Source of the DNA: a virus | Taxonomy: Duplodnaviria; Heunggongvirae; Uroviricota; Caudoviricetes | Direction: 5' to 3' (one strand) | Virus record (IMG/VR): IMGVR_UViG_2562617087_000024 | Length of the DNA: 64,000 nucleotides | Part shown: positions 23,556 to 40,241 of the stretch, in pieces | Position numbering within the stretch: the stretch's first letter is position 1 | How the letters are laid out: each line of letters begins with the position of its first letter | Notes under the pieces: generated by a model | What the model was told of the DNA's origin: nothing | Databases searched by the model: none | What the model saw: only the letters and a program-made list of their open reading frames with translations | Program-made: the position numbers and the translations under genes

Positions 23556-23608
23556 GGGCGGCAGAGCAGTCACGGAGTAAAACTGATACCGCCAAACGTC
23601 ACCAGAAA
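23556..23608 (-). ncRNA. dicF: DicF small regulatory RNA
   Basis: Minus-strand sequence tttctggtgacgtttggcggtatcagttttactccgtgactgctctgccgccc identical to recalled 53-nt E. coli DicF, followed by T-run and flanking processing stem. Confidence 0.9.
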
Positions 23609-30041: not shown

Positions 30042-30506
30042 TCTGGCCTGAAGCCTTTGCAATTACAGGCGTTGCTATAGCTATTGATTTTTTAGTATAT
30101 GTTATTTGTCGGTGGGGGTAAAAACGTTCGCCGGGATTCACACCAAAGGAGGGAATATGTCGGATGATATTTCACTGGCAATGGAAGGTGCGCTGGCTGT
30201 TATTGCTGTTGTGGGCGTTTACTGCCTGGTTGTGTTTTTGATGGATCGACTAGGGAACTGAATTCATTACGATATGGGAATTCCCATATCGGGTAAAAAC
30301 GGTTTGCGGTAAAGCGAGAGTTAAGTAGAATTGCTGCGGGTGCTTGAGGCTATCTGCCTCGGGCATGAACACCAACGGCAGATAGAGAAAAGCCCCAGTT
30401 AACATTACGCGTCCGGCAAGACGCTTAACATTAATCTGAGGCCATATCTATGCTCTACACACGTAGGTTAGCCTCTTACGTGCCGAAAGGCAAGGAGAAG
30501 CAGGCT

Positions 30507-30662
30507 ATGAAGCAGCAAAAGGCGATGCTAATCGCCCTGATCGTCATCTGTTTAACCGTCATAGTGACGGCACTGGTAACGAGGAAAGACCTCTGCGAGG
30601 TACGAATCCGAACCGGCCAGACGGAGGTCGCTGTCTTCACAGCTTACGAACCTGAGGAGTAA
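30507..30662 (+). CDS. Hok/Gef-family type I toxin
   Basis: 51 aa MKQQKAMLIALIVICLTVIVTALVTRKDLCEVRIRTGQTEVAVFTAYEPEE, closely matching recalled HokC/Gef; structured leader upstream and terminator 30720-30752. Confidence 0.8.
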   Translation: MKQQKAMLIALIVICLTVIVTALVTRKDLCEVRIRTGQTEVAVFTAYEPEE

Positions 30663-35417: not shown

Positions 35418-35493
35418 GGCCCTTTAGCTCAGTGGTGAGAGCGAGCGACGCATAATCGCCAGGTCGCTGGTTCGAATCCAGTACAACGCGCCA
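35418..35493 (+). pseudogene. degenerate tRNA-like sequence (ileZ-type tRNA-Ile2 remnant)
   Basis: ggccctttagctcagtggtgagagc…ggttcgaatcc has intact D- and T-arms but G at position 33 and a 3' acceptor strand that cannot pair with the 5' end. Confidence 0.5.
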
Positions 35494-35970
35494 CACTTAT
35501 TTTCCCTGGCTCGCTTTTGCGGGCCTTTTTTTAAATGTCTCACAATTCAGGCGGTTGACTGTTGTCTGGTTTGCGGGGAGTTTGTTAAAAGAAACTGGCA
35601 TGGTGAATCCCCCTGTGCGGAGGGGCAATCAGCAACCAGGTATATGTGATAATCGCGGATTCAGGTGCTGATACTGAATTCACCGGGAGGCACCCGGCAC
35701 CATGCAAGAAAAAGAATGTGCATGCAAACATGCCCCTCTCCGGAGGGGCTTTTTTATGGGTAAAAAATGCCCGAATGGGTTCGGGCAATAGCATGAGATA
35801 CTGATATTGTTGTGTTGTTATCGTGTGGATTTTAACCAGGGTTTATCAGGCTGCGCAACTGCGTGGCCTTTTTTCATTTCTTGGGCTGTAGTCCCCGTGT
35901 GTCATTCAGGCTTCCGGACTACAGCCCACTCCATATCTGATTTAATACACTATCCCGGCCGGGAGGAATA

Positions 35971-37917
35971 ATGACATTTAAACATTATGATGTTGTCAGG
36001 GCGGCGTCGCCGTCAGACCTTGCTGATGCACTTGCGCAAAAAATTCGTGAAGGATGGCAACCATACGGTGGGCCGTTTTCTTCGTATACGGATGATGGCG
36101 CAGCACTTATTCAGGCGATTGTCGCAGAAGGTGATGTGAGCACACCTGTTGTGGTGAAGCTGACAGGTGGAGAAGGTGCAGTAATCAGCGCCACCAGAGA
36201 CCCGGAGTATTACTTTATTGTGGTTCTGGCGGGGCAGTCAAACAGCATGGCATATGGTGAAGGCCTTCCGCTGCCGGAGACATATGACCGTCCGGACCCG
36301 CGTATTAAGCAGCTGGCGCGCCGCAGTACGGTGACACCGGGCGGTGTCGCCTGTAAATATAACGACATCATTCCGGCGGACCATTGTCTGCATGATGTGC
36401 AGGACATGAGCCGCCTTAACCATCCGAAAGCGGACCTGTCAAAGGGGCAGTACGGAACCGTGGGGCAGGGGCTGCATATCGCCAAAAAATTGCTGCCGTT
36501 TATACCGGCGAATGCGGGCATTCTGCTGGTTCCGTGCTGTCGTGGTGGTTCAGCGTTCACCACCGGAGCTGATGGCACATACAGTGACGCGAGTGGTGCT
36601 TCGGAGAATTCAACCCGCTGGGGTGTGGACAAGCCGCTGTATAAGGACCTTATCGGTCGAACAAAAGCAGCACTGAAGAAGAACCCGAAAAATGTGCTGT
36701 TTGCCGTGGTGTGGATGCAGGGGGAATTTGATTTTGGCGGTACGCCGGCAAATCACGCAGCACAGTTTGGTGCGCTGGTTGATAAATTCCGTGCAGACCT
36801 GGCGGATATGGCAGGTCAGTGCGTCGGTGGCTCTGCTGACGGTGTTCCCTGGATATGCGGGGACACGACGTATTTCTGGAAGCAGAAGAACGAAGCCACC
36901 TACCAGACGGTGTACGGCAGCTACAAAAACAAAACGGAAAAAAATATCCATTTCGTACCGTTCATGACGGATGAGAACGGGGTGAATGTGCCGACGAACA
37001 AACCGGAAGAAGACCCGGACATTCCGGGTATCGGATATTACGGTTCGAAATGGCGTGACAGCTCAGCCACCTGGACGTCACAGGACAGGGCGAGCCATTT
37101 CAGCGCCTGGGCACGCCGTGGGATTATTTCCGACCGTCTGGCAACGGCGATTTTGCGCCATGCGGGAAGAGTGGCGCTAAACGCGGGGGCATCATCGACA
37201 GTATCAGAGGTGCGCCCGTCATCGCCTTCCGGTGCAGAAGCCACAGGCATCACAACACTGCTCTCTTACCTTGCCAGCGAGTCAGAGGGAAGCCTGAAAG
37301 TACAGGGATGGTCAGCCAGTGGCGGCAGGGCAGAAGTGGTCAGCGATGCGGAGGGAACCGGAGGTAAGGCAGTGAAGCTGACCAAGGAAGCCGGTAAAAG
37401 CAGCTGGGTGCTGGAGTACGCCGCGGGCAACGGTGCGGCTCTGTTACAGAAAGGGGGGCAGATTCGCTGCCGCTTTAAGGTTTCGGGAGCGCTGGCTGCG
37501 AACCAGTATGTTATGGCGTTTTACTGGCCGGTATCTTCACTGCCACAGGGCGTTGCCCTGACCGGAGACGGGGGGAATAACCTGCTGGCAGCGTTCTACA
37601 TCCAGACAGATGCAAAAGACCTGAATGTGATGTACCACAATGCGAAAGTGGCGACAAACAACCTGAAACTGGGAAGCTTTGGCGCATTTGATAACGAATG
37701 GCATGCGCTGGCTTTCCGCTTTGCCGGGAATAACAGCCTTCAGGTGACGCCGGTTATTGATGGTCAGGATGGTACACCGTTCACGCTGACGCAGTCACCG
37801 GTCAGTGCCTTTGCGGCGGATAAACTGCATGTGACAGACATTACCAGAGGTGCGACTTACCCGGTACTGATAGACAGCATTGCGGTGGAAGTGAACAGCA
37901 CAGACACTGCGGCATGA
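35971..37917 (+). CDS. prophage sialate O-acetylesterase NanS-p-like protein
   Basis: 648 aa in the Q-to-lysis position where NanS-p sits in related prophages; esterase-type GQSN motif; gggagga RBS. Confidence 0.8.
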   Translation: MTFKHYDVVRAASPSDLADALAQKIREGWQPYGGPFSSYTDDGAALIQAIVAEGDVSTPVVVKLTGGEGAVISATRDPEYYFIVVLAGQSNSMAYGEGLPLPETYDRPDPRIKQLARRSTVTPGGVACKYNDIIPADHCLHDVQDMSRLNHPKADLSKGQYGTVGQGLHIAKKLLPFIPANAGILLVPCCRGGSAFTTGADGTYSDASGASENSTRWGVDKPLYKDLIGRTKAALKKNPKNVLFAVVWMQGEFDFGGTPANHAAQFGALVDKFRADLADMAGQCVGGSADGVPWICGDTTYFWKQKNEATYQTVYGSYKNKTEKNIHFVPFMTDENGVNVPTNKPEEDPDIPGIGYYGSKWRDSSATWTSQDRASHFSAWARRGIISDRLATAILRHAGRVALNAGASSTVSEVRPSSPSGAEATGITTLLSYLASESEGSLKVQGWSASGGRAEVVSDAEGTGGKAVKLTKEAGKSSWVLEYAAGNGAALLQKGGQIRCRFKVSGALAANQYVMAFYWPVSSLPQGVALTGDGGNNLLAAFYIQTDAKDLNVMYHNAKVATNNLKLGSFGAFDNEWHALAFRFAGNNSLQVTPVIDGQDGTPFTLTQSPVSAFAADKLHVTDITRGATYPVLIDSIAVEVNSTDTAA

Positions 37918-38273
37918 TAAAAAAACCGCCAGCGACAGGAATGGACGCTGGCGGTGGTAATACCTATGGAGAAAAAATAAAGGAACGATACTTTCGTGCT
38001 CTGGTTTTTTAAATGAAAACAGTTCTTATTGTCAACAATAACGGAAAGAAATTATGACATTTCTGAACCAGTTAATGCTGTACTTCTGTACGGTGGTCTG
38101 TGTGCTGTATCTCCTTTCGGGTGGGTACAGGGCCATGCGTGACTTCTGGCGCAGACAGATTGACAAAAGGGCCGCTGAGAAAATCAGCGCCAGTCAGTCA
38201 GCCGGAAGCAAACCCGAAGAGCCGCTCATTTAGCGGCAACTTTCTTAATCACACCTTTCGACGAGAAAATCCC

Positions 38274-38519
38274 ATGTCAGAAATTACATCCCTGGTCACT
38301 GCTGAAGCAGTGAAGGAAGTCCTGCGCTCTGAAGAAGTCCGGAGCGCACTGAAACAGAAACTTCGCCATAACCTGGAAGCGCGTCTTGATGCAGAAGTGG
38401 ATGCCATTCTGGATGAACTGCTGGGCGCACCGGCAGCTCCGGAGCCGGAAGGCATCGCGGGTGAGGGGAGTGCTTCAGACAGCGGTGACCCCACACCGGA
38501 CAGCGACATGATGATGTAA
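38274..38519 (+). CDS. hypothetical acidic protein (81 aa)
   Basis: Internal ATG 38274 of the 38100 ORF; start uncertain. Confidence 0.35.
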
Positions 38520-38596
38520 GCATGCGTCAGGGACCATCGGTGTGTGCCGGTGGTCTTTTTTATTGTTGTGAGCTTCCGGATTGCGGGAGGCGGGGT

Positions 38597-38812
38597 ATGA
38601 ACCAGATGGAAAAAATCACAACAGGTGTGTCATACACCACGTCAGCGGTGGGAACGGGCTACTGGTTCCTGCAGTTGCTGGACAGGGTTTCCCCGTCTCA
38701 GTGGGCGGCAATAGGCGTGCTGGGGAGTCTGCTGTTTGGTCTGCTGACGTACCTGACGAACCTGTATTTCAAAATCAGAGAGGACAGGCGTAAGGCGGCA
38801 CGGGGAGAGTAG
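38597..38812 (+). CDS. class II holin, phage 21 S-type (pinholin)
   Basis: 71 aa [15 protein letters not shown]…YWFLQ…[14 protein letters not shown]…[20 protein letters not shown] matches recalled S21; dual-start motif M-N-Q-M. Confidence 0.85.
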
Positions 38813-38815
38813 GTG

Positions 38816-39373
38816 ATGAACCATGAAGAAATGAATCAGCGCTTCAGTCGTCTGGAAAATGAAATTGCTGAACTGAATAAAAAACTGTCGGCGCTGATGC
38901 CTTCTGAAGATGAAAAAAAACGCCGCGATGAGCAGTTTGCTGCGTTTGACGATTATTGTCGGAAAGTGATGAGCAGAAATCTCGCAGAGTGTTTCAGTAT
39001 TCATAATGATAATTGCAGTGAGCTGGAATGGGAGTGTAACCGGCCATCCTTTGTTGTATCCGGTGATGACGGGAAAATCACCATATCAGAAAATGGAAAA
39101 GTAACACTGCCATCGCACCAGCACAGTGAGACGCTCATTGAATTTGCCATTGATTACCTGAAGAACAATAAAAAACAGGGGCTGATGCAGCGCATTGGTC
39201 GTTGCATGGGGTATCTGCAGGTAGCCACTGAGATTGAAGCGCTGGCCAGTGGTGCTGATAAGGATGCAATTGTGCGGGAGGCTCTTCTTCGTAATTTTAA
39301 TACTCCACCCTTTAAAAAAGTGCCGGCTTACTGGCTTCATCCCGGACTGACTTATCTGAAAGTGCGTATTTAG
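38816..39373 (+). CDS. hypothetical protein inserted between holin and endolysin
   Basis: 186 aa ORF starting one codon after the holin stop; N-terminal coiled coil; no family recognised. Confidence 0.5.
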   Translation: MNHEEMNQRFSRLENEIAELNKKLSALMPSEDEKKRRDEQFAAFDDYCRKVMSRNLAECFSIHNDNCSELEWECNRPSFVVSGDDGKITISENGKVTLPSHQHSETLIEFAIDYLKNNKKQGLMQRIGRCMGYLQVATEIEALASGADKDAIVREALLRNFNTPPFKKVPAYWLHPGLTYLKVRI

Positions 39374-39409
39374 TGGGCCTGGGACAGCGGCTGAATATTT
39401 AATATATCC

Positions 39410-39943
39410 ATGAACACAAAAATCAAATACGGCCTGTCGGCTGCCGTTCTGGCGCTGATTGCCGCAGGTGCTTCTGCGCCTGAAATTCTCGACCAGTTTC
39501 TTGACGAAAAAGAAGGTAACCACACCACGGCATACCGTGATGGTGCGGGTATCTGGACCATCTGCCGTGGAGCCACCCGGGTGGATGGTAAGCCTGTTAT
39601 TCCTGGCATGAAGCTGTCGAAGGGGAAATGCGACCGGGTTAACGCCATTGAGCGTGATAAGGCGCTGGCATGGGTGGAGAAAAACATCAAAGTGCCACTG
39701 ACTGAACCCCAGAAAGCGGGGATCGCGTCATTCTGCCCGTATAACATTGGCCCCGGTAAGTGTTTCCCGTCGACGTTTTATAAACGAATTAATGCAGGCG
39801 ATCGCAGGGGAGCGTGTGAAGCGATTCGCTGGTGGATTAAGGACGGAGGCAGAGACTGCCGTATCCGCTCAAATAATTGCTATGGTCAGGTATCCCGTCG
39901 TGACCAGGAGAGCGCGCTGGCGTGCTGGGGTATCGACAGATAA
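39410..39943 (+). CDS. SAR endolysin (phage 21 R-type lysozyme)
   Basis: 177 aa; N-terminal signal-anchor-release segment (LSAAVLALIAAGASAPEIL) followed by lysozyme catalytic region. Confidence 0.8.
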   Translation: MNTKIKYGLSAAVLALIAAGASAPEILDQFLDEKEGNHTTAYRDGAGIWTICRGATRVDGKPVIPGMKLSKGKCDRVNAIERDKALAWVEKNIKVPLTEPQKAGIASFCPYNIGPGKCFPSTFYKRINAGDRRGACEAIRWWIKDGGRDCRIRSNNCYGQVSRRDQESALACWGIDR

Positions 39944-40241
39944 GCAGAATATTTTGCTGAAAAATGACGTTGGCCAACGCGGACGGATAACACGAAATCC
40001 TGCGAACTGGCAAAACCTGAGTGAATAAAAGTAAAAACCCCGTTTGTTAGCAGCAGGTGGGGTTTTGTGTTTCCTGACTCCGGAAAAGTCAAAGGAGAAA
40101 GTGTGTTTGATTTTAGCAAACTGATTCGGGAGATTTGAGTGATGGCTGAAAAATTATCTACCTGGAAGTTCATTCTTATCTGGCTGGTGTTTGTGATTAT
40201 GGTCTCCGGTTATTTCATCGGTCAGATACGCTGGTGGTGAA

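What the first reader, a model, noticed from the sequence alone, without database searches (positions are those of the whole stretch)
38597..39943. Pinholin and SAR-endolysin lysis pair interrupted by an unassigned 186-aa ORF
The holin and endolysin are of the phage 21 type, which normally sit adjacent. Here a 186-aa ORF (38816-39373) with an N-terminal coiled coil and no recognisable family lies between them, starting one codon after the holin stop, so it would be co-expressed at lysis time. It could be a lysis regulator or an unrelated moron.
Basis: inference. Interest (0 to 1): 0.55.

Follow-up and report, generated by a model that had tools for sequence, protein, structure and literature searches.

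The report
Uncharacterised cargo gene in lysis cassette
A real but uncharacterised prophage gene sits between the hole-forming and wall-degrading lysis genes of an E. coli O157:H7 prophage, and this layout turns out to be common in E. coli rather than an oddity.

Summary
A phage-21-type holin (38597-38812), a 185/186-aa ORF "X" (38816 or 38813 to 39373) and an R21-like SAR lysozyme (39410-39943) lie in one late operon, followed by Rz/Rz1. The window matches E. coli O157:H7 TW14359.

X is a real gene under constraint (dN/dS 0.24-0.42). It is soluble, has lower GC than its neighbours, and has no Pfam, NCBIfam, PADLOC, PDB or fold match. It is not an orphan: it is PHROG 1085. It corresponds to the coiled-coil plus C-terminal domain of the 287-296-aa "YdfR family" proteins, without their DUF1327 domain.

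The slot after S is usually occupied in E. coli. Junction probes found S→DUF1327-YdfR in 1,212 of 5,426 complete genomes, S→X in 261, and direct S→R in 479. K-12 Qin (essQ-ydfR-rrrQ), H-19B and Stx2 phage 86 share the layout.

X takes the ribosome-binding site that serves R in phages without an insert. R is left with an SD-less, A/U-rich leader.

Most likely X is dispensable late-expressed cytoplasmic cargo, not a core lysis component. Many inducible Stx phages lack it and many genomes carry it frameshifted. A lysis-timing role is not excluded. Interest is low to moderate.

The parts
38529..38558 (+). Terminator-like hairpin followed by a T run, just upstream of S. It could insulate the lysis genes from non-antiterminated upstream transcription (inference).
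   Evidence: 13-pair stem, tail TTTATTGTTG
38597..38812 (+). S: phage-21-type class II holin (pinholin family), 71 aa, with a dual start Met1/Met4 (MNQM...).
   Evidence: PF04971 E 9e-33, phrog_9876/phrog_20 'holin'. Two hydrophobic segments visible in the sequence. RefSeq 'class II holin family protein'.
38802..38809 (+). Shine-Dalgarno GGGGAGAG inside the last codons of S. It serves X here and serves R in phages where S and R are adjacent.
   Evidence: Sequence. Junction comparison of 11 loci.
38816..39373 (+). ORF X, 185 aa from ATG 38816 (186 aa from GTG 38813). A soluble, slightly acidic, low-GC member of PHROG 1085, and a DUF1327-less variant of the long YdfR-family proteins.
38822..38992 (+). 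X residues 3-59: helical hairpin / coiled-coil module. It is shared with 161-263-aa proteins that carry a different C-terminus, so it is an exchangeable module.
   Evidence: A1 alignment. AlphaFold helices 3-27 and 31-59. phrog_2091 and phrog_15975 partial matches.
39029..39370 (+). X residues 72-185: conserved C-terminal domain (three-stranded sheet plus four helices). Motifs are GRCMGYLQVAxEIE and PPFKKxPxxWxxPGxxYLK. No known fold.
39374..39409 (+). 36-nt X-R spacer. An A/U-rich, unstructured leader for R with no Shine-Dalgarno (…gaatatttaatatatccATG).
   Evidence: Sequence. Same leader in MS15046. RNA fold z-score +1.09 with the start codon in an open loop.
39410..39943 (+). R: SAR-type T4-lysozyme-fold endolysin, 177 aa. 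Gly/Ala-rich N-terminal segment at residues 7-24. E35-x8-D44-x5-T50 triad.
   Evidence: PF00959 E 3e-24. PDB 3HDE R21 E 5.6e-17 and 4ZPU RrrD E 1.1e-16, both aligned from residue 12. Hydropathy maximum 1.78 at residue 9.
40034..40066 (+). Terminator-like hairpin between R and Rz, in the position where related phages carry ant.
   Evidence: compare
40139..40240 (+). 33-aa single-TM ORF abutting the Rz start. Not annotated in RefSeq.
   Evidence: phrog_6632 E 1.6e-19. KD19 2.26. Absent from the feature table.
40242..40709 (+). Rz i-spanin, with the embedded Rz1 o-spanin at 40462-40647.
   Evidence: PF03245 E 3.4e-50 and PF06085 E 1.7e-21

Best explanation
X is a real late gene carried as exchangeable cargo in the slot right after the pinholin gene of E. 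coli lambdoid (Stx-phage-like) prophages.

It belongs to the same cargo family as the 'long YdfR family' proteins, which are built as DUF1327 + coiled coil + C-terminal domain. X is a mosaic variant that has lost the DUF1327 domain and keeps only the coiled coil and the conserved C-terminal domain.

Shown: X is transcribed on the Q-dependent late operon with S, R and Rz/Rz1, because no promoter or terminator match separates them. It sits behind the Shine-Dalgarno sequence embedded in the 3' end of S, the same one that R uses in cassette-less phages. As a result, R starts from an SD-less, A/U-rich, unstructured leader. X has no signal peptide and no transmembrane segment.

Inferred: X is made in the cytoplasm at lysis time. 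It is not a core part of the holin-endolysin-spanin machinery and is dispensable for lysis. It most likely acts on a cytoplasmic host target. The only experimental lead is that the DUF1327 domain of K-12 YdfR binds the catalytic half of RNase E and may bind RNA. X lacks that domain, so it can at most supply the partner function of the coiled coil and C-domain, for example oligomerisation or binding of another target. A secondary consequence of any insert in this slot is altered translation of R.
For: Real and constrained: 165 homologues; dN/dS 0.24-0.42 overall and 0.12-0.42 in the last 66 codons; C-domain columns invariant down to 26-38% identity; confident AlphaFold C-domain.

Family: phrog_1085 E 8e-111, matching profile positions 117-296 of 296. 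The 287-296-aa homologues carry PF07041 in front of the same sequence. Distant relatives keep the order DUF1327-like N-domain + coiled coil + C-domain.

Cargo behaviour: GC is 44.8% (GC3 44%), against 55%/71% for S and 54%/57% for R. The slot is empty in Ss-VASD, VT2-Sakai and 37 of 50 sampled phage records. In the others it holds inserts of about 0.4, 0.6, 0.8, 1.0, 1.1 or 1.3 kb. Modules are shuffled between proteins. In one contig X lies after a lambda-S-type holin and a different endolysin.

Dispensability: inducible Stx phages lack it. It is frameshifted and annotated as a pseudogene in MS15046-like genomes, and truncated in Shigella flexneri.

Expression logic: no promoter or terminator match between S and R; conserved left and right junctions; open leader for R.

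Cytoplasmic location: maximum KD19 0.63 and a charged N-terminus.

YdfR-RNase E interaction: PMC13232886.
Against: No experiment addresses X or its C-domain, so the function is inferred from context only. X lacks the one domain (DUF1327) that has an experimental partner.

The family is almost always next to lysis genes, even with a different holin type. That is also what a lysis regulator would look like.

Dispensability is argued from presence/absence and pseudogenes in prophages, many of which may be defective, not from a deletion experiment.

Promoter and terminator scans are consensus matches only.
Confidence: 0.6

Rival explanations
1. X is a cytoplasmic lysis-timing regulator. It would bind the charged cytoplasmic C-tail of the pinholin, in the manner of T4 RIII, or otherwise delay or sharpen triggering. 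It would be translated stoichiometrically with S by coupling.
For: X starts 3 nt after the S stop behind the S-embedded SD. The family is found next to lysis genes in all contexts read, including with a lambda-S-type holin. The long form of S here begins MNQM, without a basic residue in the extension (the comparison with S21 MKSM is from memory). This could leave room for another regulator. S stop and X start are in frame (TAG+3 nt), so rare read-through would tether X to the holin tail.
Against: X is absent from 37 of 50 sampled closely related phage records with near-identical S and R. It is frequently a pseudogene. In L012 it sits after the endolysin, not after the holin. Its GC content is foreign and its modules are shuffled. 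It has no similarity to any PHROG in the 'lysis' category or to any Pfam family.
Confidence: 0.17
2. X is half of a two-gene accessory module with the convergent 104-aa ORF Y (phrog_1853), for example a defence, exclusion or toxin-antitoxin-like pair. In this prophage Y has been deleted and X is an orphaned partner.
For: X-type genes are followed by a reverse-strand 101-104-aa ORF in Stx2 phage 86, Stx2_12E129, L009-L011 and L012. The window and MS15046 share a shortened 36-nt X-R spacer where Y would be.
Against: There are no PADLOC hits for X, for the long forms or for Y. X has no promoter of its own, so it would not be expressed in a lysogen. X without Y is intact, identical on 85 contigs and under purifying selection.
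Confidence: 0.1
3. X is a decaying remnant. It would be an N-terminally deleted long YdfR-family gene that has lost its functional DUF1327 domain, stays open by chance or recency, and does nothing.
For: DUF1327 is missing. Related copies are frameshifted in many genomes. The prophage is one of many in O157:H7 and may be defective.
Against: DUF1327-less forms of 185-222 aa make up a large, diverse set down to 47% identity, with dN/dS 0.24-0.42. The S→X junction is present in 261 complete genomes. This shows a stable gene type, not a one-off deletion.
Confidence: 0.08

Closest known systems
YdfR of the K-12 Qin cryptic prophage (P76160, 103 aa, DUF1327/PF07041), and the unannotated 114-aa YdfR-like ORF of Stx1 phage H-19B
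   Same: Same genomic slot: directly after a P21-type holin gene (essQ / S) and before the SAR lysozyme gene (rrrQ / R), behind the same S-embedded SD. Long YdfR-family proteins join DUF1327 to exactly the coiled coil and C-domain found in X.
   Different: X has no DUF1327 domain. It shows no profile similarity to DUF1327 (hhalign probability 0.3%). The reported RNase E N-terminal-half binding maps to YdfR residues 1-72 (PMC13232886), so it cannot be transferred to X.
Stx2-converting phage 86 gp05 (YP_794052.1, 268 aa, 'YdfR family protein')
   Same: The C-terminal domain is 80% identical over 114 residues, in the same slot after S, in a sequenced Stx2-converting phage genome.
   Different: gp05 has a DUF1327 N-domain and a different linker. 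It is followed by the reverse-strand 104-aa ORF and a 128-bp leader, both missing in the window.
Phage 21 / DLP12 lysis cassette (S21-R21-Rz/Rz1; essD-rrrD-rzpD)
   Same: Same holin family (PF04971), SAR lysozyme alignable with R21 and RrrD structures, and Rz/Rz1 embedded spanins.
   Different: S and R are adjacent or overlapping there (DLP12; phage 21 itself from memory). Here 597 nt, comprising X and its 36-nt spacer, intervene, and R has lost the S-embedded SD.
Cytoplasmic or membrane holin regulators (T4 RIII/RI, lambda S107, S21-71 antiholin)
   Same: Made together with the holin. T4 RIII is likewise a small soluble cytoplasmic helical protein (from general knowledge).
   Different: No sequence, family or fold similarity was detected. 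Unlike the dual-start antiholins, X is a separate, optional gene.
Late-region cargo of lambdoid phages (lambda bor/lom morons; stx, nanS-p, DUF1378 and DUF826 genes in Stx phages)
   Same: A compositional island in the late region, present or absent among otherwise near-identical phages (PMC10462455, PMC8136144).
   Different: Classical morons have their own promoter and terminator. X has neither and depends on late-operon transcription and the S-embedded SD.

Membership tests
P21 holin S family (class II / pinholin), for S | Match to PF04971 above the gathering score over the full profile length | tested here: met
   112.5 bits against a cut-off of 26, positions 1-63 of 64
P21 holin S family (class II / pinholin), for S | Two transmembrane segments and a dual-start motif (Met1...Met4) | tested here: met
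   MNQMEK... start and two hydrophobic stretches in the sequence. The 3-residue extension lacks a basic residue, so an antiholin role for the long form is uncertain.
P21 holin S family (class II / pinholin), for S | Forms small heptameric pinholes that depolarise the membrane rather than release endolysin | not testable with these tools
   Needs biochemistry or genetics. The literature classifies H-19B and Stx-phage S proteins as pinholins by homology (PMC10462455, PMC8136144).
SAR endolysin (R21-like), for R | T4-lysozyme-type catalytic domain with an E-x8-D-x5-T triad | tested here: met
   PF00959 E 3e-24. E35, D44 and T50 read from the sequence.
SAR endolysin (R21-like), for R | N-terminal weakly hydrophobic Gly/Ala-rich signal-arrest-release segment | tested here: met
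   YGLSAAVLALIAAGASAP at residues 7-24. It aligns with the R21 N-terminus in 3HDE from residue 12. KD19 1.78. Membrane release itself was not tested.
YdfR family / DUF1327 (PF07041), for X | Presence of the DUF1327 domain | tested here: not met
   No PF07041 hit for X, whereas YdfR, Stx2-86 gp05 and the Stx1_14040 ORF hit at 1e-53 to 7.5e-34. hhalign of the C-domain against DUF1327 gives probability 0.3%.
PHROG 1085 (long YdfR-type proteins, function unknown), for X | Full-length match to the coiled-coil plus C-terminal part of the profile | tested here: met
   E 8.2e-111, residues 2-186 against profile positions 117-296 of 296. 82-91% identity to 287-296-aa members.
PHROG 1085 (long YdfR-type proteins, function unknown), for X | Location in or beside the lysis cassette of an enterobacterial lambdoid prophage | tested here: met
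Moron (autonomous accessory transcription unit) | Own promoter and terminator flanking the gene | tested here: not met
   No promoter-like or terminator-like site between 38812 and 39410 (consensus scan only)
Moron (autonomous accessory transcription unit) | Deviant base composition and presence/absence polymorphism among close relatives | tested here: met
   GC 44.8% against 54-55% for the flanks. The slot is empty in 37 of 50 sampled phage records.
Known anti-phage defence proteins (PADLOC-DB) | Match to any defence-system profile | tested here: not met
   0 families for X, two long forms and Y
Antiholin / holin regulator | Physical interaction with the holin and an effect on lysis timing | not testable with these tools
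   No similarity to 'lysis'-category PHROGs or Pfam families. Functional tests are required.

The most novel reading that the evidence does not exclude
The coiled coil plus C-terminal domain shared by X and the long YdfR-family proteins could be a previously unrecognised cytoplasmic effector of lambdoid phage late development. One version is that it times pinholin triggering by binding the holin's cytoplasmic tail; rare in-frame amber read-through could even tether it to S. The other is that it redirects host RNA decay at the moment of lysis, as the partner of the RNase E-binding DUF1327 domain. Either way, lysis cassettes in more than a thousand E. coli genomes, including Stx phages, would carry an extra regulatory component that affects the timing of toxin release.
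Probability: 0.12. Interest if true: 0.6.

Novelty: new member of a known kind. Interest (0 to 1): 0.27.

Why it matters
In Stx phages, toxin release depends on the late operon and on lysis timing. An unrecognised protein made together with the holin could therefore affect how much Shiga toxin is released and when.

The practical value of this analysis is mainly corrective. An ORF between S and R is the commoner state in E. coli prophages with P21-type holins, not an anomaly. The ORF here belongs to a catalogued but unstudied family.

Two small, testable points come out of it. First, the conserved C-terminal domain has no Pfam family and no structural neighbour, so it is a candidate for a new domain definition. 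Second, every insert in this slot takes R's ribosome-binding site and leaves R with an SD-less leader, so the cargo may tune endolysin dosage whatever its protein does.

Tried and rejected
- Pfam, NCBIfam and PADLOC scans of X gave nothing above threshold. The best Pfam hit was Relaxase_C at E 0.048, on the coiled coil only.
- A profile search of PDB sequences gave a best E of 0.16.
- I tested whether the C-domain is a diverged duplicate of DUF1327 (both are sheet-then-helix). hhalign probability was 0.3%, so this is rejected.
- The exhaustive profile search found only 42 representatives in 1.84 billion proteins. The scan of GTDB species representatives found only Escherichia and Shigella. Viral-contig scans with two distant relatives found one locus with a DUF1327-like N-domain but no C-domain.
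- Rfam found no RNA family in 38000-40800.
- The 90%-identity cluster of X contains 114-116-aa YdfR proteins, but these are unrelated to X (BLASTP E 2.1). The link comes only through the long forms.
- Literature searches for DUF1327, ydfR and a gene between S and R found only the RNase E interaction paper (PMC13232886) and a supplementary-table listing of the ydfR deletion as an envelope-permeability hit (PMC3879167). That hit could equally be a polar effect of the resistance cassette on rrrQ (my inference).

Full report
WHAT IS THERE

The 1.5-kb stretch 38500-40000 is 100% identical to E. coli O157:H7 TW14359 (NC_013008.1 1755738-1757238) and RM6067W. It is 99.5-99.9% identical to many other O157:H7 and O111:H8 genomes.

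It lies in a lambdoid, Stx-phage-like prophage that has no stx genes. The gene order is: Q antiterminator, DNA methyltransferase, tRNA, a 648-aa NanS-p-like esterase, DUF1378, DUF826, S, X, R, Rz/Rz1, then terminase.

- S (38597-38812) matches PF04971 'Bacteriophage P21 holin S' at E 9e-33.
- R (39410-39943) matches PF00959 at E 3e-24.
- Rz and Rz1 match their Pfam families.
- R aligns with the phage 21 endolysin structure 3HDE and with DLP12 RrrD (4ZPU) from residue 12 onward. The alignment therefore includes the Gly/Ala-rich N-terminal segment YGLSAAVLALIAAGASAP.
- R has the E35-x8-D44-x5-T50 triad, read directly from the sequence.

The 'pinholin plus SAR endolysin' description is thus supported by homology. 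It agrees with published surveys of Stx phages (PMC8136144, PMC10462455).

The ORF in between runs to 39373. It starts at ATG 38816 (185 aa, the RefSeq start, WP_001015159.1 'hypothetical protein') or at GTG 38813 (186 aa).

IS X A REAL GENE?

Yes.

- It has 165 database homologues.
- The identical protein occurs on 85 contigs.
- Nei-Gojobori dN/dS against six homologues with 58-94% amino-acid identity is 0.24-0.42.
- The last ~65 residues hold a block of invariant columns, GRCMGYLQVAxEIE ... PPFKKxPxxW..PG..YLK. This block persists in relatives only 26-38% identical.

X has no hydrophobic segment (maximum KD19 0.63) and a charged N-terminus, so it should be cytoplasmic.

AlphaFold gave mean pLDDT 80.7 once distant relatives were added to the alignment. 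The model has:
- an N-terminal helical hairpin at residues 3-59, consistent with the heptad pattern F10/L13/I17/L20/L24/L27;
- a disordered linker at residues 58-69;
- a confident C-terminal domain at residues 72-185 (pLDDT 83-96), made of a three-stranded sheet and four helices.

WHAT FAMILY?

Pfam, NCBIfam and PADLOC give nothing. PHROGs gives phrog_1085 at E 8e-111, with X covering profile positions 117-296 of 296.

The explanation lies in the homologue list. Many hits are 287-296-aa 'YdfR family / DUF1327 domain-containing' proteins, 82-91% identical to X over 98% of its length. They carry a PF07041 domain in front.

More distant relatives from the exhaustive profile search keep the same order: DUF1327-like N-domain, coiled coil, C-domain. 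X is therefore a DUF1327-less member of the long YdfR-type family.

X is also a mosaic. Its first ~40 residues are those of the 213-aa DUF1327-less type (Stx2_12E129). The rest matches the 296-aa type.

The family is narrow. It has 42 representatives at 50% identity among 1.84 billion proteins, and only Escherichia and Shigella among GTDB species representatives.

THE SLOT

The gap between S and R is a variable locus.

Adjacent S and R:
- Shigella phage Ss-VASD, with a 4-nt gap;
- DLP12, where essD and rrrD overlap;
- VT2-Sakai and most Stx2a phages.

Occupied slot:

| Source | Content of the S-R slot |
|---|---|
| K-12 Qin | ydfR (103 aa) |
| H-19B | unannotated 114-aa YdfR-like ORF |
| Stx2_EH2201 | 114-aa ORF |
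| PhiR12_2_star | DUF1327 protein plus a reverse ORF |
| Stx2_499 | 161 aa plus 0.5 kb |
| Stx1_14040 | 263 aa plus 0.5 kb |
| Stx2_12E129 | 213 aa plus a reverse 104-aa ORF |
| Stx2 phage 86 | 268-aa gp05 plus the same reverse ORF |

In an evenly spaced sample of phage records, 50 matched both S and R. Of these, 37 had S and R adjacent, 9 had a ~0.4-kb insert, and 4 had larger inserts.

In 5,426 complete E. coli genomes I used 140-nt junction-spanning probes, counted at >=80% coverage:
- S→R adjacency: 479 genomes;
- S→X: 261 genomes;
- S→DUF1327-type YdfR: 1,212 genomes.

In E. coli prophages an occupied slot is therefore commoner than adjacency.

DNA of X itself is found in 879 genomes, with >=80% coverage in 233. 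Many other copies are frameshifted and annotated as 'YdfR family protein, incomplete'.

X is not strictly tied to the S-R position. In one contig it follows a lambda-S-type holin and a different endolysin.

JUNCTIONS AND EXPRESSION LOGIC

In all eleven loci compared, the left junction is immediately after the S stop codon, behind the SD GGGGAGAG that lies in the last codons of S (one locus, L009/P0117, is the exception, see below). In adjacent-type phages this SD serves R, whose product starts MSRKFRYG. In every occupied locus it serves the insert.

In every occupied locus R begins MN[A/T]KI[K/R]YG. It is preceded by a conserved A/T-rich leader...gataaatcctgataaatatccATG, with no SD. The window and MS15046 have a shortened 36-nt version of this leader. 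That leader is predicted to be unstructured, with a z-score of +1.09.

L009/P0117 differs at the left junction: it has a different holin 3' end and a 42-nt gap before its ORF.

The consensus scan found no promoter or terminator between S and R. It did find terminator-like hairpins just upstream of S (38529-38558) and between R and Rz (40034-40066).

X is a compositional island: GC 44.8% and GC3 44%, against 55%/71% for S and 54%/57% for R.

From this I infer three things. X is transcribed only with the late operon. It is translated efficiently next to S. Any insert here changes how R is translated.

MECHANISM

The best-supported reading (confidence about 0.6) is that X is late-expressed, cytoplasmic, dispensable cargo of the YdfR-type family, and not a component of the holin-endolysin-spanin machinery. 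The molecular function is unknown.

The only experimental lead for the family is that K-12 YdfR residues 1-72 (the DUF1327 domain) bind the catalytic N-terminal half of RNase E, and that the protein co-purifies with RNA (PMC13232886). X lacks that domain. At most it provides the partner activity of the coiled coil and C-domain.

A ydfR deletion scored as an envelope-permeability hit in a genome-wide screen (PMC3879167, supplementary tables). This could be a polar effect on rrrQ; that is my inference.

Rivals:
- Cytoplasmic lysis-timing regulator (about 0.17). Favoured by the tight linkage to lysis genes and by the uncharged MNQM extension of S. Disfavoured by absence from most close relatives, frequent pseudogenes and module shuffling.
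- Orphaned half of an X+Y module, where Y is the convergent 104-aa phrog_1853 ORF (about 0.10). There are no PADLOC hits.
- Decaying remnant (about 0.08). Contradicted by purifying selection and by the breadth of DUF1327-less forms.

VERDICT

The anatomy is real and correctly described. However, the layout is ordinary for E. coli lambdoid prophages, and the ORF belongs to a catalogued though uncharacterised family.

I rate it as a new member of a known kind, with low-to-moderate interest (0.27). The residual value lies in three points:
- an undefined, structurally novel-looking C-terminal domain;
- the displacement of R's ribosome-binding site by the insert;
- the open question of what YdfR-type proteins do at lysis time in Stx phages.

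Noticed in passing
window 38810-38818: The S stop codon (TAG) and the X start (ATG 38816) are in the same reading frame, separated only by GTG. Amber read-through or a suppressor host would give an S-X fusion, tethering X to the holin's cytoplasmic tail. TAG plus 3 nt recurs in Stx2_12E129, Stx2_499, Stx1_14040 and PhiR12. H-19B, Stx2-86, EH2201 and MS15046 have TAA plus 4 nt, which is out of frame.
   Followed up: partly
window 39374-39409, and the R leaders of L002-L005, L008, L009, L017-L019: Every locus with an insert between S and R has an SD-less, A/T-rich leader before R and an R N-terminus MN[A/T]KI[K/R]YG. Adjacent-type phages use the S-embedded SD, and their R starts MSRKFRYG. This suggests one ancestral right junction inside the first codons of R.
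   Followed up: partly
window 40139-40240 (+): Unannotated 33-aa single-transmembrane ORF ([33 protein letters not shown]). It ends 1 nt before the Rz start. It matches phrog_6632 (E 1.6e-19, function unknown).
   Followed up: partly
window 38529-38558 and 40034-40066 (+): Two terminator-like hairpins lie inside the late operon. One is directly upstream of S. The other is between R and Rz, where relatives carry an ant gene.
   Followed up: no
L002 4085-4399(-), L003 3470-3784(-), L009 3661-3975(-), L012 3634-3939(-): A convergent 101-104-aa ORF 'Y' (phrog_1853, no Pfam, NCBIfam or PADLOC match) follows many X-type genes, and a hairpin-containing 128-bp region separates it from R. It is absent from the window.
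   Followed up: partly
window 35424-35823: Between the methyltransferase gene and the NanS-p-like esterase, Rfam finds a tRNA (35424-35483), sRNA STnc100 (35569-35761, +) and the anti-GcvB sRNA AgvB (35762-35823, -). There are no stx genes at the position where Stx phages carry them.
   Followed up: no
window 23556-23607 (-) and 30338-30512 (+): DicF antisense sRNA, and a sok antitoxin RNA beside hokD, elsewhere in the same prophage.
   Followed up: no
window 38597-38608: The long form of the holin starts MNQM, and relatives start MYQM. The three-residue extension has no basic residue, unlike the MKSM I recall for phage 21 S. The dual-start antiholin mechanism may therefore work differently here (the comparison is from memory).
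   Followed up: no
window 35971-37917 versus NC_013008.1: The esterase ORF coordinates are offset by 2 nt relative to the offset that fits S, X and R in TW14359. The window may therefore come from a very close relative rather than from TW14359 itself, or it has a 2-nt indel between 37917 and 38500.
   Followed up: no
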